Virus record (IMG/VR): IMGVR_UViG_2565956719_000009
Reading direction: 5' to 3' (one strand)
Length of the DNA: 31,137 nucleotides
From: a virus
Taxonomy: Duplodnaviria > Heunggongvirae > Uroviricota > Caudoviricetes
The notes under the pieces are model-generated. The model did no database searches, was not told the DNA's origin, and saw only the letters and a list, made by a program, of their open reading frames with translations. Positions 4,468 through 12,578 of the stretch are shown piece after piece (positions within the stretch are counted from its first letter, which is position 1; every line of letters starts with the position of its first letter). Made by a program: the position numbers and the translations under genes.

Positions 4468-4855
4468 TGTTTTTGGTTTTAACTGTTCCGCGTGCGCTTA
4501 GCCGCATTCACTGCATCACAAAATTCACTTTAAAAAGGGTGGCAGAGCAGTCACGGAGTAGAACTGATGCCACCAAAGACTACACATGGATATTGTGGCG
4601 GGGCTGTCACTTAAGCGTATGGTCAGCCTGACAACCCGGTGTCCTCAAGGGGAAGGAATAACCCCGCCATACTTACCGCCGCGCCATTTCGCGGATTGCC
4701 ACAACCGGAAGCGCACGGTCGAATTAAATTTAACGACAAAGTACAGAGAGACGAGCTTCTCCGTGTGCTTTCGCGTTATGCTCTGACTTTTCAGAGAAAT
4801 ATCCTTTCAGTAAACTGTCAGTGCCGGATGTTCACCCGTGTCCGTGGATTTGCCC

Positions 4856-5761
4856 CTATATTTCCAGACACCTGTTATCACTTAACCCATTACTGGCTTG
4901 CTGCCGTAGATATTCCCGTGGCGAGCGATAACCCAGTGCACTATGCGGATGCCATTCGTTATAATGCTCGAACGCCTCTGCAAGGTTCTTTGCTGCCGTT
5001 AACCCGTCTGGTTTGGGCATGACACTGATGTAGTCACGCTTTATCGTTTTCACGAAGCTCTCTGCTATGCCGTTACTCTCCGGACTCCGCACCGCCGTGC
5101 TCTTCGGTTCAAGCCCCAACATCCGGGCAAACTGCCGTGTTTCATTAGCCCGGTAGCATGAACCATTATCCGTCAGCCACTCTACTGGAGACGCCGGAAG
5201 CTCGTTGCCGAAGCGGCGTTCCACCGCTCCCAGCATGACGTCCTGTACTGTTTCACTGTTGAAGCCGCCCGTAGTGACCGCCCAGTGCAGTGCCTCACGG
5301 TCACAGCAGTCCAGCGCGAACGTGACTCGCAGTTTTTCTCCGTTATCACAGCGGAACTCGAACCCGTCAGAGCACCATCGCTGATTACTTTCTTTCACAG
5401 CCACTCTGCCTGTATGTGCCCGTTTCGATGGCGGTACAGCAGGTTTTCGCTCAAGCAACAGCGCATTCTGGCGCATGATCCGGTAAACACGTTTGGCATT
5501 GATCGCAGGCATACCATCAAGTTCTGCCTGTCTGCGAAGCAGCGCCCATACCCGACGATAACCATACGTGGGCAGCTCTCCGATAACATGGTGTATACGG
5601 AGAAGCACATCCGTATCATCAGTGTGACGACTGCGGCGGCCATCCATCCAGTCATCGGTTCGTCTGAGAATGACGTGCAACTGCGCACGCGACACCCGGA
5701 GACAACGGCTGACTAAGCTTACTCCCCATCCCCGGGCAATAAGGGCGCGTGCGCTATCCAC
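4856..5761 (-). CDS. insD: IS2 transposase OrfB (InsD)
   Basis: 301 aa, near-identical to IS2 InsD as recalled ([46 protein letters not shown]...). Confidence 0.9.
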
Positions 5762-6084
5762 TTTTTTGCCCGTCCATATTCAACGGCTTCTTTGAGGAGT
5801 TCATTTTCCATCGTTTTCTTGCCGAGCAGGCGCTGGAGTTCTTTAATCTGCTTCATGGCGGCAGCAAGTTCAGAGGCAGGAACAACCTGTTCTCCGGCGG
5901 CGACAGCAGTAAGACTTCCTTCCTGGTATTGCTTACGCCAGAGAAATAACTGGCTGGCTGCTACACCATGTTGCCGGGCAACGAGGGAGACCGTCATCCC
6001 TGGTTCAAAGCTCTGCTGAACAATTGCGATCTTTTCCTGTGTGGTACGCCGTCTGCGTTTCTCCGGTCCTAAGACATCAATCAT
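5719..6084 (-). CDS. insC: IS2 OrfA (InsC), HTH protein; fused to InsD by -1 frameshift
   Basis: Internal start [41 protein letters not shown]... matches IS2 InsC; overlaps insD; A6G slippery heptamer on the minus strand at ~5762-5768. Confidence 0.9.
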
Positions 6085-6247
6085 CTGCTCTCCAATGACT
6101 AGTCTAAAAACTAGTATTAAGACTATCACTTAAATAAGTGATATTGGTTGTCTGGTGATTCAGGGGGCCAGTCTAGTCCGGCGCACGCACTCCACTTCAC
6201 CCGTGGAGAACTCCTTAATTACCAACCTTAGCTTCGTTGGTTAGCTA

Positions 6248-6466
6248 TTAACGCGGGTATGTAATCATTCTGGCAATGCTTAATGCCGCTGCTTTTTCCA
6301 GATTGGTGATATCCTGCTCCAGAGCGGACAGATTTTCAGCCTGCTTAGCCCTGGCTTCATTGGCCCATTTCAGATCCTGCGCTGCATTAATTTTCTGGCG
6401 CATCCACTCATAAAGTTCATCATCGGTATAGTCTGGCGCGATGATGACGGGTTCTCGTTTCTGCAT
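6248..6466 (-). CDS. Hypothetical early-left protein
   Basis: 72-aa ORF co-oriented with the leftward early operon downstream of the pL-like region; charged/coiled-coil-like composition; no family recognised. Confidence 0.4.
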   Translation of the reverse strand: MQKREPVIIAPDYTDDELYEWMRQKINAAQDLKWANEARAKQAENLSALEQDITNLEKAAALSIARMITYPR

Positions 6467-6558
6467 GTCGGCTCCTTGTGGTTAGCGTTGCCTGCTTTTA
6501 ACCACGTCAGGCGAGGTGGTATCCTCTGAGGGGTCTGTTACTCGAGAGGAAATTGGTT

Positions 6559-6759
6559 ATGAGTACAATCAAGTTTTCTTGCCCAGAATGTGGTGGCGAA
6601 GTCTTTGACACATCCTTTAAGCCGCAGGGCTCTGACAGTTTCGCGGGAGCCATCTGCAAAAATTGTGGTCACCTTGTAACTGAAGATGAGTCCTCGCAGT
6701 TCGATGACGAAATCGTTGACAATATCTTCGGTGCACTCACCAGAGACTTTCTGAAGTAA
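6559..6759 (+). CDS. Small zinc-ribbon protein (CPECG..CKNCG)
   Basis: ATG at ~6559 preceded by GAGAGGA RBS; two CxxC pairs 30 residues apart followed by an acidic tail; opposite strand to the early-left operon, so it would need its own promoter. Confidence 0.4.
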   Translation: MSTIKFSCPECGGEVFDTSFKPQGSDSFAGAICKNCGHLVTEDESSQFDDEIVDNIFGALTRDFLK

Positions 6760-7083
6760 AGGCGCATACCGCTTAGTTACCGCTCTGATAATTCTTACCT
6801 GTCCGGCAATGGCGCTGATGTCAATATAAAGCGCCATTGCTGCTTCTTTGCCGATCCCGGGATGCCTTCCATTCTGATGTTTGACTTCGCCCACTGAGAA
6901 ATCCTCTGTTTCCCCTTAACGCCGGGGTAGCGGAACAAAAACCTGCTGCATAGTTATTAAAGTTGAACCCTGCCGTCATGTTCTTACGCCTCGGGCTGGC
7001 TACTTAACCCCTGACCACTGCCTGGTAACTCGAAGTATTGCCCTGCATTCTGTGGGGCGGGGTGGGTTGGTATGAAAAGAAGG

Positions 7084-7120
7084 ATACCCATAGGTATTTA
7101 AAAAGTAAATACCCATGGGT
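7084..7120. promoter_or_regulatory. Left operator cluster (OL-like) with candidate pL
   Basis: ATACCCATAGGTAT (7084-7097) and ACCCATGGGT (7111-7120, perfect palindrome) just downstream of the repressor gene; on the minus strand TTTACC-17 bp-TAAATA overlaps them. Confidence 0.45.
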
Positions 7121-7163
7121 AAATTTTTGCGGTGTCTTAACTGGTGACTAGTTGTTTGGTGAG

Positions 7164-7583
7164 CTATGATGCGTTTTGTGCTTTCTTTTTACGGATTTCT
7201 TCGTAGATCATATTGTAATACTGTTTTTTCTCTTCAAGAGTTTTTAATAATTTATCCGCTTCACTTTCTGGCAGTTCGTCTAAGAGATCTAAAAAAATAC
7301 GTTGTCGTGGCGTTAGAACCCTTGTTTCATAACTGGAGGCTGTGTTCGTTGATGATGAAACGATACCATCCATCCATCCCCGGGGTAACCCAAAGGACTC
7401 TTCGATAATCTCCACCATATCATCAGCGATCCGTTTTTTTCCCTTTTTCCCCTCTGGGTACAACATTCTTGATACATAAGAAGGCTCGCGCCCGATCTTT
7501 CTGGCCACGTTAACCGCTTTACCATCGCATTTCTCATCACGAATTTTGATGAGTTGCTGTCGTCTAAATTCATATTTGTCCAT
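7164..7583 (-). CDS. Prophage repressor, HTH DNA-binding (RacR/CI-like functional position)
   Basis: 139 aa; HTH-like segment KAVNVARKIGREPSYVSRML; divergent from the Cro-like gene; flanked on both sides by the same operator motif. Confidence 0.75.
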   Translation of the reverse strand: MDKYEFRRQQLIKIRDEKCDGKAVNVARKIGREPSYVSRMLYPEGKKGKKRIADDMVEIIEESFGLPRGWMDGIVSSSTNTASSYETRVLTPRQRIFLDLLDELPESEADKLLKTLEEKKQYYNMIYEEIRKKKAQNAS

Positions 7584-7618
7584 AGGTAAATAATAGATGC
7601 GATTACCGCAAGGTAAAC

Positions 7619-7661
7619 AACCTGTGGGTATTGACTTTTGTTTACCTGTGGGTATTCTTTG
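7619..7661. promoter_or_regulatory. Right operator cluster (OR-like) with candidate pR
   Basis: Two copies of ACCTGTGGGTAT (7620-7631, 7644-7655) bracket a TTGACT -35 (7631-7636) and TATTCT -10-like hexamer upstream of the Cro-like gene; a further CCATAGGTAAA site overlaps the repressor start. Confidence 0.45.
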
Positions 7662-7683
7662 CTGTGTTTACTAAGGAGTAGCT

Positions 7684-7965
7684 ATGGAAGAATTAAGAAT
7701 ATTTCTCAATTCTCTTTCGTCAGATGAACAGCGTATGTTTGCATGCGAGTGTGGTACCAGCATCGGTTATCTAAGAAAGGCATTGAGTAAAGGTCAAGTG
7801 TTAGGGGCATCGTTATGTGTCCTTATTGAGCGAGCCAGTAATGGTGAAGTTACACGTCAGCAACTAAGGCCTTTTGATTGGATGAATATTTGGCCCGAGC
7901 TGGAAGATACCAAAACGTTAACACAACCACTTTCTAGGAGCTTGATTCATGAAAATCAAGCATGA
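7684..7965 (+). CDS. Cro-like / YdaS-like HTH regulator
   Basis: 93 aa, first gene rightward of the operator region, divergent from the repressor; GAGGAG RBS; synteny with Rac racR-ydaS-ydaT. Confidence 0.65.
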   Translation: MEELRIFLNSLSSDEQRMFACECGTSIGYLRKALSKGQVLGASLCVLIERASNGEVTRQQLRPFDWMNIWPELEDTKTLTQPLSRSLIHENQA

Positions 7966-8374
7966 ACACATCCGCATGGCGATGAATGCCTGGGCGCGTC
8001 CTGATGGCGAAAAAGTTCCAGCAGCTGGAATAACCCAGGCTTATTTTGAGTTGGGTATGACGTTCCCGGAACTGTATGACGACAGCCATCCGGAAGCCCT
8101 GGCTCGCAATACCCAGAAAATTTTCCGCTGGGTAGAGAAAGACACCCCTGATGCTGTTAAAAAAATGCAGGCTCTGTTACCGGCGATCGAAAAGGCGATG
8201 CCGCCTTTGCTGGTGGCCCGTATGCGCAGCCACAGTTCTGAATATTACCGTGAGATCGTCGAACGGAGGGATCGGCTGGTGAAGGATGTCGATGATTTTG
8301 TTGCGTCAGCGGTTGTTTTGTATGACCAGATGAATCGCGGCGGCCCGGCAGGGAATGCTGTGGTGATGCACTAA
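7949..8374 (+). CDS. YdaT-like protein (CII-position regulator)
   Basis: 141 aa beginning MKIKHEHI..., overlapping the Cro-like gene end; positional and N-terminal resemblance to Rac YdaT as recalled. Confidence 0.55.
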   Translation: MKIKHEHIRMAMNAWARPDGEKVPAAGITQAYFELGMTFPELYDDSHPEALARNTQKIFRWVEKDTPDAVKKMQALLPAIEKAMPPLLVARMRSHSSEYYREIVERRDRLVKDVDDFVASAVVLYDQMNRGGPAGNAVVMH

Positions 8375-8381
8375 AAGCACG

Positions 8382-9359
8382 GTGTTCGGGGGTTTTATGA
8401 GCAGCAAGCTTCATGGTCTTGTCTGGGAAGGGTGCGCCTTCACCGGCATGATCTTATCCAGGGTGGCGGTTATGGCCCGTCTTGCAGACTACAGCAATGA
8501 CGAGGGCGTGTCATGGCCTGCCATTGAAACTATCCGGCGTCAGATCGGTGCAAGAAGTGAATCCACAGTGAAATCGGCTATTGCAGAACTGGCGAAAGAG
8601 GGCTGGCTGACGAAGGAAGAGCGTAAGGTCGGTGGGCGTAATGTAAGCAATATCTATCGGCTTAATGTGGAAAAACTCGAAGCAGCTGCGGCGGCGGCGC
8701 GTGAGTCATATAAACCGAAAAGAAAAATTAGCCCGGCAAAAAATGACCCGTTAACAGTTGACCCGTCAAATATTGACCCCTCAACGGTTGACCCGTCAAA
8801 TTTTGATGGATCAACTGTTGATAAAAAACTGCCGATTAGGGGGGCGATGATTGACCCCGATCCGTCAGTATTAAAACCTGATCCGTCAGATAAAAGATCT
8901 TCTTGTCCGGACGCTTCGCAACCGGACCCGCAGACGGCTGAACAGGATTTTTTAACCCGACACCCTGACGCGGTTGTGTTCAGTGCGAAAAAACGCCAGT
9001 GGGGAAGTCAGGAAGATTTGGTGTGCGCACAGTGGATCTGGGGACGAATCGTGAGTCTTTACGAGCAGGCGGCCAGCTATGATGGCGAGATCACTAGACC
9101 GAAAGAACCCAACTGGACAGCATGGGCCAATGACGTTCGCACAATGCGGATGCTGGATGGCAGAACTCACAGACAAATTTGTGAAATGTTTGGGCGTCTC
9201 CAGCGGGATTCGTTCTGGGTAAAAAACATCATGAGTCCGGCAAAACTCCGGGAAAAATGGGATGAACTGGTTATCCGCCTGGGGCGTTCGCCTGCGCAGC
9301 GTTGCGTGAATCACATTTCTGAACCGGACACTGAAATACCGCCGGGATTCAGGGGGTGA
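8382..9359 (+). CDS. Replication initiator, lambda O-like (N-terminal wHTH, origin iterons inside the gene)
   Basis: 325 aa; N-terminal HTH; 15-bp-period DNA iterons at 8740-8830 encode the peptide repeat VDPSN-IDPST-VDPSN-FDGST; followed by a DnaC-like loader. Confidence 0.7.
   Translation: MFGGFMSSKLHGLVWEGCAFTGMILSRVAVMARLADYSNDEGVSWPAIETIRRQIGARSESTVKSAIAELAKEGWLTKEERKVGGRNVSNIYRLNVEKLEAAAAAARESYKPKRKISPAKNDPLTVDPSNIDPSTVDPSNFDGSTVDKKLPIRGAMIDPDPSVLKPDPSDKRSSCPDASQPDPQTAEQDFLTRHPDAVVFSAKKRQWGSQEDLVCAQWIWGRIVSLYEQAASYDGEITRPKEPNWTAWANDVRTMRMLDGRTHRQICEMFGRLQRDSFWVKNIMSPAKLREKWDELVIRLGRSPAQRCVNHISEPDTEIPPGFRG
8740..8830. repeat. Candidate replication origin: TTGACCCGTCAA-type iterons at 15-bp spacing followed by a short A-rich stretch
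   Basis: GTTGACCCGTCAAA (x2), ATTGACCCCTCAAC, TGACCCGTTAACA, TTTGATGGATCAAC in tandem inside the initiator ORF; more GATCCGTCAG repeats at ~8850-8890. Confidence 0.55.
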
Positions 9360-9365
9360 CGTGTC

Positions 9366-10112
9366 ATGAAAAACATTGCGGCAGTTGGGGTTCTTGAACG
9401 TATTCGCAGACTTGCACCACAGGGGTCGGTTCCACCGTACCGGACGGTGGAGGAGTGGCGGGAATGGCAACTTGCTGAAGGACGAAAACGCAGCGAGGAG
9501 ATTAACCGCCAGAATCGCCAGTTGCGGGTGGAAAAAATCCTGAATCGTTCGGGCATCCAGCCTCTGCACAGCAAATGCTCGTTTGCAAATTATCAGGTGC
9601 AGAACGACGGGCAAAAATACGCGCTGAGCCAGGCCAAATCCATAGCTGACGAACTGATGACCGGGTGCACGAATTTTGTGTTCAGCGGTAAAACCGGCAC
9701 CGGGAAAAATCACCTTGCAGCGGCGATGGGCAACCGGCTGATGGTGAAGGGGCGCAGCGTGATTATCGTCACCGTGTCTGACGTCATGAGCGTGTTGCAT
9801 GACAGCTACGACAACGGCAAATCCGGGGAAAAATTTTTACAGGAGCTTTGCGGGGTTGATTTGCTGGTCCTGGATGAAATAGGCGTTCAGCGGGAGACGA
9901 AAAACGAGCAGGTGGTATTGCACCAGATAATTGATCGCCGGACAGCATCACTGTGCAGTGTCGGGATGTTAACAAACCTGAATCATGCCGCAATGAGTAC
10001 GCTTCTTGGTGAGAGGATTATGGACCGCATGACCATGAACGGTGGTCGATGGGTGACGTTTAACTGGGATAGCTGGCGTCCAAATGTCAGCAATATGAGG
10101 GTTGTGAAGTAA
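9366..10112 (+). CDS. DnaC-like helicase loader (IstB-like AAA+ ATPase)
   Basis: 248 aa; Walker A GKTGTGKNHLAAA, Walker B LLVLDEIG; immediately downstream of the initiator. Confidence 0.85.
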   Translation: MKNIAAVGVLERIRRLAPQGSVPPYRTVEEWREWQLAEGRKRSEEINRQNRQLRVEKILNRSGIQPLHSKCSFANYQVQNDGQKYALSQAKSIADELMTGCTNFVFSGKTGTGKNHLAAAMGNRLMVKGRSVIIVTVSDVMSVLHDSYDNGKSGEKFLQELCGVDLLVLDEIGVQRETKNEQVVLHQIIDRRTASLCSVGMLTNLNHAAMSTLLGERIMDRMTMNGGRWVTFNWDSWRPNVSNMRVVK

Positions 10113-12185: not shown

Positions 12186-12422
12186 TTTTATGGATCACCT
12201 TTCTGATTGATTTCATATTGGCGAGGTGACGTGAGTTAAGTAGAATGGCTGCGGGTGCTTGAGGCTATCTGTCTCAGGCATGAACACTGAAAGGCAGATA
12301 GAGAAAAGCCCCAGTTAACATTTCGCGTCCTGCAAGACGCTTAACATTAATCTGAGGCCCAATCTATGTCTCACAAATGTAGGTTAGCCTCTTACGTGCC
12401 GAAAGGCAAGGGGAAGCAGGCT

Positions 12423-12578
12423 ATGAAGCAGCAAAAGGCGATGTTAATCGCCCTGATCGTCATCTGTTTAACCGTCATAGTGACGGCACTGGTAACGAGG
12501 AAAGACCTCTGCGAGGTACGACTCCGAACCGGCCAGACGGAGGTCGCTGTCTTCACAGCTTACGAACCTGAGGAGTAA
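12423..12578 (+). CDS. hokD: Hok/Gef-family type I toxin, HokD/RelF-like
   Basis: MKQQKAMLIALIVICLTVIVTALVTRKDLCEVRLRTGQTEVAVFTAYEPEE: single TM helix plus conserved C-terminus, near-identical to RelF/HokD as recalled; track ORF extends in frame upstream to 12366. Confidence 0.85.
   Translation: MKQQKAMLIALIVICLTVIVTALVTRKDLCEVRLRTGQTEVAVFTAYEPEE

What the first reader, a model, noticed from the sequence alone, without database searches (positions are those of the whole stretch)
7080..7665. Repressor gene flanked by two operator clusters sharing an ACC(C/T)(A/G)T(A/G)GGTA motif
Four to five copies of a partially palindromic 12-14-bp motif (ATACCCATAGGTAT, ACCCATGGGT, ACCTGTGGGTAT x2, CCATAGGTAAA) lie in two clusters on either side of the repressor gene, overlapping candidate -35/-10 elements of leftward and rightward promoters. 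That is lambda-like OL/OR geometry combined with a Rac-like racR-ydaS-ydaT gene set. The sites on the two sides differ systematically (CCAT-type versus CTGT-type), suggesting graded affinities.
Basis: seen in the sequence. Interest (0 to 1): 0.4.

Follow-up and report, generated by a model that had tools for sequence, protein, structure and literature searches.

The report
Prophage repressor operators, lambda-style layout
The repeated motif marks the binding sites (TACC-N4-GGTA) of an E. coli prophage repressor, laid out around its gene as in phage lambda; this is an ordinary genetic switch, but its site sequence appears undescribed and recurs in many other bacteria.

Summary
The motif is best written TACC-N4-GGTA. 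All 4 exact copies in the 31-kb window lie in 7085-7654 (0.13 expected), plus one 1-mismatch copy at 7619-7630.

They form an OL pair (7085-96, 7110-21) on a leftward promoter. An OR triplet (7643-54, 7619-30, 7604-15) lies on divergent PR and PRM-like promoters, between a 139-aa repressor gene (7583-7164) and a YdaS-family cro (7684-7965).

In 35 related loci (Enterobacterales, Aeromonas, Neisseria, Burkholderiales and others) there are 102 exact sites against 3.2 expected, and 101 occupy the same positions. The sites persist where the cro is absent. They vanish where the recognition helix differs.

Recombination breakpoints at 7074 and 7943 bound an exchangeable immunity cassette that contains both clusters.

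- The repressor is not RacR-like. It joins an mEp043-CI-type DNA-binding domain to a DicA-like tail and has no S24 peptidase domain.
- The site 7604-15 was missed.
- "CCATAGGTAAA" is an unconserved half-site.
- The CCAT/CTGT contrast does not generalise. The conserved gradation is a defective OR2 half-site and a non-YRYR OR3 centre.

Binding is inferred, not shown. Verdict: a new member of a known kind, of low-to-moderate interest.

The parts
7075..7942 (.). Exchangeable immunity cassette: PL/OL, repressor gene, OR and cro.
   Evidence: Homology with a racR-type prophage (L040) and with Rac K-12 ends at 7074 and resumes at 7943. For phage Tritos the breakpoints are 7067 and 7937.
7085..7096 (.). 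OL1, TACCCATAGGTA. It overlaps the candidate PL -10.
   Evidence: Exact motif. A homologous OL1 is found in 30 loci, 23 of them exact, with the -10 starting at its terminal TA. It is conserved in Salmonella within otherwise unrelated flanking DNA.
7110..7121 (.). OL2, TACCCATGGGTA, 25 bp from OL1. It abuts the candidate PL -35.
   Evidence: Exact motif. A homologous OL2 is found in 30 loci, 26 of them exact, followed directly by TTGAC, TAGAC or TTTAC.
7081..7109 (-). Candidate PL: -35 TTTACT (7109-7104), 17-nt spacer, -10 TATCCT (7086-7081), predicted start near 7074.
   Evidence: Read from the sequence. It has the same architecture as PR and as the downstream promoter of 30 loci. It scores 8 of 12 against consensus, so the scan did not list it. 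This part is inferred.
7075..7121 (-). A 16-bp hairpin formed by OL2 and OL1, followed by UCCUUCUUUU. It is a possible terminator of the repressor transcript.
   Evidence: The terminator scan found it. RNA folding gives -22.2 kcal/mol, z = -7.8. Neither the long stem nor the T-tail is conserved in most related loci.
7164..7583 (-). Repressor gene, 139 aa: XRE-like helix-turn-helix domain (residues 1-76), disordered linker (77-87), DicA-like helical tail (92-138). No S24 peptidase domain.
   Evidence: phrog_5736, E = 6e-70. No Pfam match. AlphaFold2 mean pLDDT 86.5. Fold matches to XRE-type and C-protein repressors. DicA tail similarity. Homologues carrying S24 domains.
7577..7588 (.). Probably not an operator.
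   Evidence: Two mismatches in one half. Not conserved in Salmonella or in any other locus.
7590..7617 (-). Candidate PRM: -35 TTTACC (7617-7612), 16 nt, -10 TATTAT (7595-7590). The predicted start falls on the A of the ATG at 7583, giving a leaderless mRNA.
   Evidence: The scan found it. The same -35 / 16-17 nt / -10 arrangement, ending 6-7 nt before the ATG with no convincing ribosome-binding sequence, occurs in about 28 of 36 sequences. Leaderless paaR2 was shown experimentally in the analogous CP-933P switch (PMC8630535).
7604..7615 (.). OR3, TACCGCAAGGTA.
   Evidence: Exact motif. The homologous site at -32/-33 is exact in 24 of 31 loci, and its centre is YRYR in only 3 of 31.
7619..7630 (.). 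OR2, AACCTGTGGGTA, with one mismatch in the PRM-proximal half. Its centre lies at -41.5 from the predicted PRM start, and it abuts the PR -35.
   Evidence: The homologous site has exactly one mismatch in 20 of 28 loci, always in the same half, and is flanked by an invariant TCAA, the complement of the PR -35 TTGA.
7643..7654 (.). OR1, TACCTGTGGGTA. It lies between the PR -35 and -10 and overlaps the -10.
   Evidence: Exact motif. The homologous site at -71 to -75 is exact in 30 of 32 loci, with a YRYR centre in 28 of 32.
7631..7658 (+). Candidate PR: -35 TTGACT (7631-36), 16 nt, -10 TATTCT (7653-58).
   Evidence: The scan found it. The -35 TTGA is conserved next to OR2 across loci.
7684..7965 (+). 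cro analogue, 93 aa, YdaS family.
   Evidence: phrog_35. 73% identical to mEp043 Cro. PDB 8c7k and 8co2 'Cro', E = 1e-10. Present divergently in 26 of 35 family loci.
7942..7959 (.). Exact YdaT (CII analogue) operator, TTGATTCATGAAAATCAA, spanning the ydaT start codon. It belongs to the neighbouring module.
   Evidence: The only 0-mismatch match in the window. The consensus was footprinted in CP-933P (PMC9986795).
7949..8374 (+). ydaT, the CII analogue. It lies outside the immunity cassette.
   Evidence: PF06254 above its cutoff. About 95% identical to PDB 8bt1, CP-933P YdaT. Absent from all 35 family loci.

Best explanation
The TACC-N4-GGTA repeats are most likely the operators of a lambda-type lysogeny switch in an E. 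coli lambdoid prophage. Dimers of the 139-aa repressor are proposed to bind a roughly 14-16-bp palindrome, (T)TACC-N4-GGTA(A), through an XRE-like helix-turn-helix domain. At OR, occupancy of OR1 (7643-54) and the intrinsically weaker OR2 (7619-30) would block PR. OR2 is centred at -41.5 from the PRM start, so it could also activate PRM. OR3 (7604-15) covers the PRM -35 and would shut off repressor synthesis at high concentration. At OL, two sites 25 bp apart (7110-21 and 7085-96) bracket a leftward promoter of the same design as PR. Occupying them would repress the ydfC-DicF-dicB-exo-xis-int operon. The YdaS-family Cro (7684-7965) would use the same sites for the opposite state. The repressor mRNA is probably leaderless. 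The repressor has a DicA-like helical tail instead of an S24 autoprotease domain, so RecA-stimulated self-cleavage cannot induce the prophage. Shown here by sequence and comparison: the sites, their enrichment, their fixed positions, their co-inheritance with the DNA-binding domain, and the cassette boundaries. Inferred: actual binding, order of occupancy, PRM activation, leaderless translation, and Cro sharing the sites.
For: Enrichment: 4 exact sites, all in 7085-7654, against 0.13 expected. Comparative evidence: in 35 loci that encode the same N-terminal domain (210 kb, several orders of Beta- and Gammaproteobacteria) there are 102 exact sites against 3.2 expected. Of these, 54 lie at -80 to -25 from the repressor ATG, 47 lie downstream as pairs 24-27 bp apart, and 1 lies elsewhere. 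Site classes behave differently and consistently. OR1 is exact in 30 of 32 loci. OR2 has one mismatch in the same half in 20 of 28. OR3 is exact but has non-YRYR centres in 28 of 31. Promoter hexamers are fused to the sites in a conserved way. Specificity controls: the Rac, Qin and Tritos immunity regions contain no such site, and Tritos has a different repeat (ATGTACT...) in the same two places. The sites persist in 7 loci that lack the YdaS-type cro, so they track the repressor domain. The two Advenella loci without sites have a changed recognition helix (SYVSR becomes ASISH or ATISH). Cassette breakpoints at 7074 and 7943 enclose both clusters. In a Salmonella relative the OL and OR sites are islands of conservation in diverged spacer DNA. 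The structure model shows a confident helix-turn-helix domain with XRE and C-protein fold matches. The same circuit logic was shown experimentally in CP-933P, which shares the ydaT gene at 95% identity (PMC8630535, PMC9986795).
Against: There are no binding or expression data for this protein or these sites, and no paper held in the library mentions the motif. PL is a weak consensus match (8 of 12) and was not returned by the promoter scan. OR2 and OR3 centres are only 15 bp apart, unlike lambda's 23 bp, so the lambda model of occupancy may not carry over directly. The left pair also forms a strong hairpin with a T-tail, so part of its conservation in this window could serve termination. The PL operon is interrupted by IS2, so the switch may be vestigial in this strain. 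How a repressor without an S24 domain would be inactivated is unknown; no LexA box was found in the window.
Confidence: 0.85

Rival explanations
1. The left cluster (7085-7121) is only the intrinsic terminator of the repressor gene. Under this reading it is an inverted repeat that happens to resemble the right-hand sites, not an operator pair on a leftward promoter.
For: The terminator scan reports a 16-bp stem with a 5-nt loop and the tail TCCTTCTTTT on the repressor's strand. The RNA fold gives -22.2 kcal/mol, z = -7.8. The element lies 43 bp after the stop codon.
Against: Two similar palindromic sites side by side form a hairpin automatically. In 30 related loci the pair is kept with a -35 (TTGAC) fused to the first site and a -10 fused to the second, usually without a long stem or a T-tail. 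The pair also lies at very different distances from the repressor stop codon, sometimes with other genes in between. Its half-sites are identical to those at OR. It sits inside the swapped immunity cassette, whose edge coincides with the predicted PL start. A dual role as operators plus terminator in this window is not excluded; I put that at about 0.3.
Confidence: 0.07
2. The sites are recognised by Cro (the YdaS-like protein) or by another factor, and the 139-aa protein binds elsewhere or is not the repressor.
For: The YdaS-family cro co-occurs with the sites in 26 of 35 loci, so co-occurrence alone cannot fully separate the two proteins in the window.
Against: Loci L005-L010, L022 and L030 lack that cro but keep the sites at the repressor's own promoter and at a downstream promoter. 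Loss of the sites coincides with changes in the repressor's recognition helix. The sites sit at a fixed distance from the repressor ATG. YdaT has a different, known site, which is present at 7942-7959.
Confidence: 0.05
3. The module is a Rac-type toxin-control unit: an essential repressor holds down toxic ydaS and ydaT genes, and it is not a lysis-lysogeny switch.
For: The Pfam family names are YdaS_toxin and YdaT_toxin. The prophage looks degraded, with IS2 in the left operon and a frameshifted integrase in a near-identical copy. For Rac, loss of RacR is lethal (PMC5700373).
Against: The gene order is lambda's: PL operon, repressor, cro, cII analogue, then O-like and DnaC-like replication genes. 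The same domain, operators and cro occur in the viable phage mEp043, which also carries N and an S24-type CI. YdaS and YdaT were shown to act as Cro and CII analogues in CP-933P (PMC8630535, PMC9986795). The two readings are not exclusive: a switch in a dead prophage can behave as a toxin-control unit.
Confidence: 0.03

Closest known systems
Phage lambda immunity region (OL/PL - cI - PRM/OR/PR - cro - cII)
   Same: The gene order is the same. The repressor and cro genes are divergent and about 100 bp apart. There are three sites at OR, with the middle one at about -42 from PRM. A second cluster lies on PL downstream of the repressor gene. Adjacent sites are about 24-25 bp apart. The repressor mRNA is probably leaderless. 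The region is an exchangeable 'imm' cassette.
   Different: The operator is a 12-16-bp TACC-N4-GGTA palindrome rather than lambda's 17-bp sites. OL has two sites, not three. OR2 and OR3 are 15 bp apart rather than 23 bp. OL and OR are about 0.5 kb apart rather than 2.3 kb. The repressor has no S24 domain. Cro and CII are replaced by unrelated YdaS- and YdaT-family proteins.
CP-933P switch of E. coli O157:H7 (PaaR2 / YdaS / YdaT; PMC8630535, PMC9986795)
   Same: Both have a small repressor that cannot self-cleave, a YdaS-family Cro, an intergenic OR of 97-100 bp, and a PL with operators downstream of the repressor operon. The leaderless repressor mRNA was shown there and is inferred here. YdaT is 95% identical, and the same TTGATT-N6-AATCAA site lies at the cro/ydaT junction.
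   Different: The operator consensus differs: 18-bp palindromes with half-site GTTTAGTAA there, TACC-N4-GGTA here. There are no paaA2-parE2 toxin-antitoxin genes after the repressor. I could not obtain the PaaR2 sequence, so homology of the two repressors was not tested. The Cro proteins are only distantly related (E = 1e-10 to PDB 8c7k and 8co2).
Phage mEp043 immunity region (cI, cro)
   Same: The CI N-terminal domain is 76% identical and Cro is 73% identical. TACC-N4-GGTA sites lie at the same positions at OR (-72, -47, -32) and as a 25-bp pair on PL.
   Different: mEp043 CI is 228 aa with an S24/LexA-type C-terminal domain. Its neighbours are a lambda-type cII and N rather than ydaT. I found no published description of its operators.
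DicA / DicC / dicB region of the Qin prophage
   Same: The repressor's C-terminal 46-50 residues resemble DicA's (33% identity; NF007257 E = 2e-5). The repressor is followed by a promoter bracketed by two operators, which drives a ydfC-DicF-dicB operon.
   Different: The N-terminal DNA-binding domains are not detectably similar in sequence. The operators differ (TGTTAG... in Qin). DicC is unrelated to this cro (E = 0.054).
Rac prophage racR-ydaS-ydaT
   Same: The layout is the same. YdaT is 30% identical over its full length. The block 6911-7074 left of the cassette is shared at 87%.
   Different: The repressor is unrelated to RacR (E = 2.3). YdaS similarity is limited to 28 residues. The Rac region contains no TACC-N4-GGTA site.

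Membership tests
Lambdoid CI/Cro immunity switch | Divergent repressor and cro genes separated by a short region with multiple operators overlapping two back-to-back promoters | tested here: met
   The spacer is 100 bp. Three sites overlap PR and PRM candidates. The arrangement is conserved in about 28 loci. This holds at the sequence level only.
Lambdoid CI/Cro immunity switch | A second operator cluster on a leftward early promoter (PL) beyond the repressor gene | tested here: met
   Sites at 7085-96 and 7110-21 bracket TTTACT / 17 nt / TATCCT. The homologous pair with fused -35 and -10 occurs in 30 loci. Leftward genes ydfC, DicF and, in the uninterrupted copy, dicB, exo, xis and int follow.
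Lambdoid CI/Cro immunity switch | Repressor and Cro physically bind the operators and set two exclusive states | not testable with these tools
   This needs EMSA or footprinting and reporter assays.
Lambdoid CI/Cro immunity switch | Repressor carries an S24 (LexA-like) autoprotease domain for SOS induction | tested here: not met
   The protein is 139 aa with no PF00717 match. Its C-terminus is a helical hairpin with DicA similarity. Many homologues of the same DNA-binding domain do carry PF00717.
Rac racR-ydaS-ydaT module | Repressor homologous to RacR | tested here: not met
   BLASTP against K-12 RacR gives E = 2.3.
Rac racR-ydaS-ydaT module | YdaS homologue | tested here: inconclusive
   PF15943 scores 25.8 bits, below its cutoff of 30. 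BLASTP to Rac YdaS gives 54% identity over 28 aa, E = 1e-6. PDB 'Cro' entries 8c7k and 8co2 match at E = 1e-10.
Rac racR-ydaS-ydaT module | YdaT homologue | tested here: met
   PF06254 scores 37.3 bits against a cutoff of 21. It is 30% identical to Rac YdaT and about 95% identical to CP-933P YdaT, PDB 8bt1.
CP-933P PaaR2/YdaS/YdaT switch | Operators of the 18-bp palindrome type with half-site GTTTAGTAA | tested here: not met
   The sites here are TACC-N4-GGTA. The CP-933P consensus is taken from PMC8630535.
CP-933P PaaR2/YdaS/YdaT switch | Repressor homologous to PaaR2 and followed by paaA2-parE2 | not tested
   The PaaR2 sequence could not be obtained with these tools. No ORF lies between the repressor stop (7164) and OL2 (7121), so no toxin-antitoxin pair follows the repressor.
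CP-933P PaaR2/YdaS/YdaT switch | YdaT with its TTGATT-N6-AATCAA site at the cro/ydaT junction | tested here: met
   An exact site lies at 7942-7959 and is the only 0-mismatch match in the window. YdaT is about 95% identical to 8bt1.
mEp043-CI-type DNA-binding domain family (no Pfam model) | N-terminal domain of about 75 aa with the recognition helix ..EPSYVSRMLY.. | tested here: met
   76% identical to mEp043 CI. The helix is invariant in all site-bearing loci. The family has 624 clusters at 50% identity with E <= 1e-3.
mEp043-CI-type DNA-binding domain family (no Pfam model) | TACC-N4-GGTA sites at about -72, -47 and -32 from the ATG, plus a downstream pair | tested here: met
DicA family (NF007257) | Full-length match above the curated cutoff | tested here: not met
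   24.5 bits against a cutoff of 101. Only residues 86-136 match.
XRE / lambda-repressor-like HTH fold | Five-helix helix-turn-helix domain | tested here: inconclusive
   No Pfam HTH match at E <= 0.01. The AlphaFold2 model has pLDDT above 90 over residues 1-70. Foldseek aligns it to C.Esp1396I, C.BclI and the SPC32H Rep protein at rmsd 2.4-2.7 A over about 70 residues with probability 0.98-1.0, but E-values are only 2e-3 to 0.6.

The most novel reading that the evidence does not exclude
One DNA-binding domain, operator set and Cro form a conserved 'address' across Beta- and Gammaproteobacteria, joined to interchangeable C-terminal 'sensor' domains. These include two kinds of S24 autoprotease, a DicA-like helical tail and others. 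If that is so, the uncleavable repressor of this common E. coli prophage (found in 814 of 5426 complete genomes) should recognise the operators of SOS-inducible phages such as mEp043. It could then give SOS-proof immunity against them, or hold a co-resident inducible prophage of the same operator type in lysogeny. A smaller point: in this window the OL pair may also act as the terminator of the repressor transcript.
Probability: 0.35. Interest if true: 0.45.

Novelty: new member of a known kind. Interest (0 to 1): 0.3.

Why it matters
The result gives a concrete, testable operator code, (T)TACC-N4-GGTA(A), and full promoter-operator maps for an immunity type with no Pfam model for its DNA-binding domain. 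No description of the motif was found in the papers I could search. This immunity type is present in about 15% of complete E. coli genomes and in prophages of many other genera.

It also offers a natural set of domain swaps for studying how induction signals are exchanged while DNA specificity is kept. The same DNA-binding domain occurs with S24 or DicA-like tails, and the same tail occurs with a different DNA-binding domain in phage Tritos. In addition, the result predicts cross-immunity between cryptic prophages and viable phages.

It does not change the understanding of how such switches work.

Tried and rejected
- Literature search for the motif strings (TACCNNNNGGTA and variants, TACCCATAGGTA) returned no papers. 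The mEp043 papers found say nothing about operators.
- PDB sequence search with the repressor returned nothing below E = 0.078, only spurious Z-alpha hits.
- Rfam at gathering and at E-value thresholds found no RNA family in 6800-7750, apart from a meaningless miRNA hit on the OL hairpin.
- I considered a put- or nut-like leader RNA in the conserved block 6911-7074. The fold is no better than shuffles (z = +1.07), so I dropped it.
- A LexA box (CTGT-N8-ACAG) that might indicate an SOS-controlled antirepressor was not found in the window. The induction route remains unknown.
- ydaT as part of the immunity type was rejected: 0 of 35 loci carry it and it lies outside the cassette.
- RacR homology was rejected.
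- I could not obtain the PaaR2 sequence, so that comparison was not made.
Full report
**What is in the window**

The window is part of a lambdoid prophage of E. coli. The stretch 6900-8400 is found at 80% coverage or more in 814 of 5426 complete E. coli genomes. In a near-identical copy the element sits next to a tRNA-Ser gene. There the leftward genes are ydfC, dicB, DUF1482, exonuclease, xis and int, and the rightward genes are replication, Q and lysis genes.

Around the finding the genes are:
- a 139-aa repressor gene on the minus strand (7583-7164);
- a divergent 93-aa YdaS-family cro (7684-7965);
- a ydaT gene, the CII analogue (7949-8374);
- an O-like gene (8382-9359) and a DnaC-like gene (9366-10112).

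To the left lie ydfC (6248-6466), an IS2 copy (about 4856-6129) and DicF (4537-4588).

**Check of the observation**

All the quoted strings exist at the stated places. The motif is best written TACC-N4-GGTA.
- It has 4 exact copies in 31 kb: 7085-96, 7110-21, 7604-15 and 7643-54. The shuffle expectation is 0.13, and no shuffle reached 4.
- A one-mismatch copy lies at 7619-30.
That half-site is not conserved even in the closest Salmonella relative.

**Anatomy**

At OR:
- The scan finds PR as TTGACT (7631-36), 16 nt, TATTCT (7653-58). It finds a leftward PRM candidate as TTTACC (7617-12), 16 nt, TATTAT (7595-90).
- OR1 (7643-54) fills the PR spacer and overlaps the -10.
- OR2 (7619-30) abuts the PR -35. 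It is centred 41.5 bp upstream of the A of the repressor ATG.
- OR3 (7604-15) covers the PRM -35.
- The PRM -10 ends 6 nt before the ATG and there is no ribosome-binding sequence, so the mRNA would be leaderless. This is an inference.

At OL:
- Read on the minus strand, the sequence is TACCCATGGGTA-TTTACT-TTTTA-AATACCTATGGGTA-TCCT.
- That is the same design as PR: one site, then the -35, then a second site overlapping the -10 (-35 at 7109-04, -10 at 7086-81).
- PL scores 8 of 12 against consensus, so the scan did not list it. I assign it by architecture and by comparison with other loci.

**Comparative evidence**

The N-terminal 75 residues or so have no Pfam match. They are 65-82% identical to the N-termini of many 221-242-aa LexA/S24-type phage repressors, and to short repressors in other genera. 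A full scan of 1.84 billion cluster representatives finds 624 clusters with this domain. Protein lengths range from 72 to 399 aa, and the domain is usually N-terminal.

I fetched 34 genomic loci encoding the domain, plus phage mEp043. They come from Yersinia, Edwardsiella, Klebsiella, Pantoea, Leclercia, Atlantibacter, Aeromonas, Neisseria, Paraburkholderia, Ralstonia, Ferrovum and others.
- These 210 kb contain 102 exact TACC-N4-GGTA sites against 3.2 expected from base composition.
- 54 sites lie between -80 and -25 of the repressor ATG, typically at -72/-73 and -32/-33.
- 47 lie downstream of the repressor as pairs 24-27 bp apart. One lies elsewhere.
- The immunity regions of Rac, Qin and phage Tritos contain none.

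**The site classes have distinct, conserved characters**

| Site | Exactness across loci | Centre (N4) | Flank |
|---|---|---|---|
| OR1 | exact in 30 of 32 | YRYR in 28 of 32 | overlaps the PR -10 |
| OR2 | exactly one mismatch in 20 of 28, always in the PRM-proximal half | YRYR in 23 of 28 | invariant TCAA, the complement of the PR -35 TTGA |
| OR3 | exact in 24 of 31 | YRYR in only 3 of 31 | overlaps the PRM -35 |
| OL2 | exact in 26 of 30 | YRYR in 16 of 30 | followed by TTGAC, TAGAC or TTTAC |
| OL1 | exact in 23 of 30 | YRYR in 14 of 30 | its terminal TA begins a TAnnnT -10 |

A TTTACC / 16-17 nt / -10 promoter ending 6-7 nt before the ATG occurs in about 28 of 36 sequences. A convincing ribosome-binding sequence is absent. 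This fits leaderless repressor mRNAs throughout the family. That property was demonstrated for paaR2 in CP-933P (PMC8630535).

Both are YRYR centres, TGTG is CACA on the other strand, and either type occurs on either side in other loci. If affinities are graded, the conserved candidates are the OR2 half-site defect and the OR3 centre.

**Which protein do the sites belong to?**

The YdaS-type cro is present, divergent and about 100 bp away, in 26 of 35 loci.

Five Klebsiella loci, plus L022 and L030, lack that cro yet keep the sites. In the Klebsiella locus I inspected (L008) there is no divergent cro ORF at all, and the DNA upstream of the repressor gene shows no convincing phage ORFs.

Two Advenella loci have 35-38% identical domains and no such sites. 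Their recognition helix reads ASISH or ATISH, where every site-bearing locus has SYVSR.

The sites therefore follow the repressor's DNA-binding domain. That Cro shares them is an inference from the lambda and CP-933P precedents.

**Cassette boundaries**

Homology of the window to a racR-type prophage (L040) and to Rac K-12 stops at 7074 and resumes at 7943. For phage Tritos the breakpoints are 7067 and 7937. The exchanged block 7075-7942 therefore starts at the predicted PL start point and contains OL, the repressor gene, OR and cro. This is the classical 'imm' unit.

Tritos CI (139 aa) shares the window repressor's C-terminal 50 residues or so but has a different N-terminal domain. A different repeat (ATGTACT...) occupies the same two places there.

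In a Salmonella relative with an 85% identical repressor, the OL and OR sites are preserved while the surrounding spacer DNA is unrelated.

**The protein**

The AlphaFold2 model has mean pLDDT 86.5. It shows a compact helical N-terminal domain (helices 3-18, 23-30, 34-40 and 54-63), a disordered linker (77-87) and a C-terminal helical hairpin (92-103 and 106-138).

Foldseek aligns the N-domain to XRE-type repressors and restriction-modification C-proteins at 2.4-2.7 A over about 70 residues. The top hit is the antirepressor-controlled Rep protein of Salmonella phage SPC32H, but E-values are weak.

The tail matches DicA's C-terminus (NF007257 E = 2e-5; BLASTP 33% over 46 aa). There is no S24 domain. 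RecA-stimulated self-cleavage, which mEp043 CI and most relatives could undergo, is therefore not available. I found no LexA box in the window that would point to an SOS-controlled antirepressor.

**The neighbouring module**

YdaT is about 95% identical to CP-933P YdaT (PDB 8bt1). The only exact TTGATT-N6-AATCAA site in the window spans the ydaT start codon (7942-7959). This is the sequence footprinted for YdaT in CP-933P (PMC9986795). The module lies outside the cassette and is absent from all 35 family loci.

**Rival for the left cluster**

On the repressor's strand the two OL sites fold into a 16-bp hairpin (-22.2 kcal/mol, z = -7.8) followed by UCCUUCUUUU. Two similar palindromes side by side always give such a hairpin. 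The long stem and the T-tail are not general in the family, whereas the fused promoter elements are. I therefore treat termination as a possible extra role in this window, not as the explanation.

**Verdict**

This is an ordinary lambda-type switch whose operator sequence appears not to have been described. The closest experimentally studied system is CP-933P, with the same circuit and the same YdaT but a different repressor-operator pair. The closest sequence relative is the uncharacterised immunity region of mEp043. All statements about binding, order of occupancy, PRM activation and leaderless translation are inferences awaiting biochemistry.

Noticed in passing
window 6911-7074: A conserved block just downstream of the predicted PL start recurs next to different immunity types: Rac K-12 at 87%, a racR-type prophage at 96%, Tritos at 99%, and an Actinobacillus phage at 75%. 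It shows no significant RNA structure (z = +1.07) and has no Rfam match. Its role is unknown; it could be a leader, a small ORF or a recombination linker.
   Followed up: partly
window 7942-7959: An exact YdaT operator, TTGATTCATGAAAATCAA, spans the ydaT start codon and sits right at the right-hand cassette junction. The window's YdaT is about 95% identical to the crystallised CP-933P YdaT (PDB 8bt1).
   Followed up: yes
L036 (mEp043), L002, L011, L013, L017, L019: about 35-45 bp upstream of OL2: TTACC-N14-GGTAA (for example ATTACCTGAAAATTCAAGCAGGTAAAC) has the same half-sites placed one helical turn further apart. It also forms a 7-bp hairpin. It is absent from the window. It could be a third, unusual operator or a terminator.
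   Followed up: no
L034 and L035 (Advenella), about -52 from the repressor ATG: These divergent family members lack TACC-N4-GGTA. Instead they carry ATACCGC-N8-GCGGTAT-like palindromes (TACC-N12-GGTA spacing), and their recognition helix is altered (ASISH or ATISH).
   Followed up: partly
L005-L010 (Klebsiella): An S24-type repressor with the same DNA-binding domain and sites is present. No homologue of the window's cro is found in these loci. In L008 the DNA upstream shows no convincing phage ORFs, and small membrane-protein-like ORFs follow the downstream operator pair. This may be a non-phage element, such as a bacteriocin or tailocin locus, under the same repressor type.
   Followed up: no
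L039 (phage Tritos) 1788-2207: Tritos CI (139 aa) shares the window repressor's C-terminal 50 residues or so but has a different DNA-binding domain. Different repeats (ATGTACT...) lie on both sides of its gene. This is a natural swap of the DNA-binding domain on one tail.
   Followed up: partly
window 6538-6894 (-) and 6553-6759 (+): Two ORFs overlap on opposite strands, and each has a PHROG family: phrog_21318 on the minus strand and a zinc-ribbon ECs_2282-family protein on the plus strand. RefSeq annotates only the plus-strand one. The minus-strand ORF starts where ydfA starts in Qin.
   Followed up: no
window about 4856-6129: An IS2 copy (InsC/InsD-like ORFs) is inserted in the PL operon between ydfC and DicF (4537-4588), so the left operon is interrupted in this strain.
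   Followed up: no
P0010 and P0019 (E. coli homologues of the repressor): Some E. coli strains carry variants of the repressor whose N-terminus is read in another frame and resembles the translation of ORF 7313-7573. The DNA-binding domain would be destroyed in them.
   Followed up: no
window 12253-12428, 16789-17035, 17114-17791, 19798-19914: Rfam matches elsewhere in the window: sok antitoxin RNA, three tRNAs, two copies of the sRNA STnc100, and an ALIL frameshift pseudoknot that indicates a second IS3-family element.
   Followed up: no
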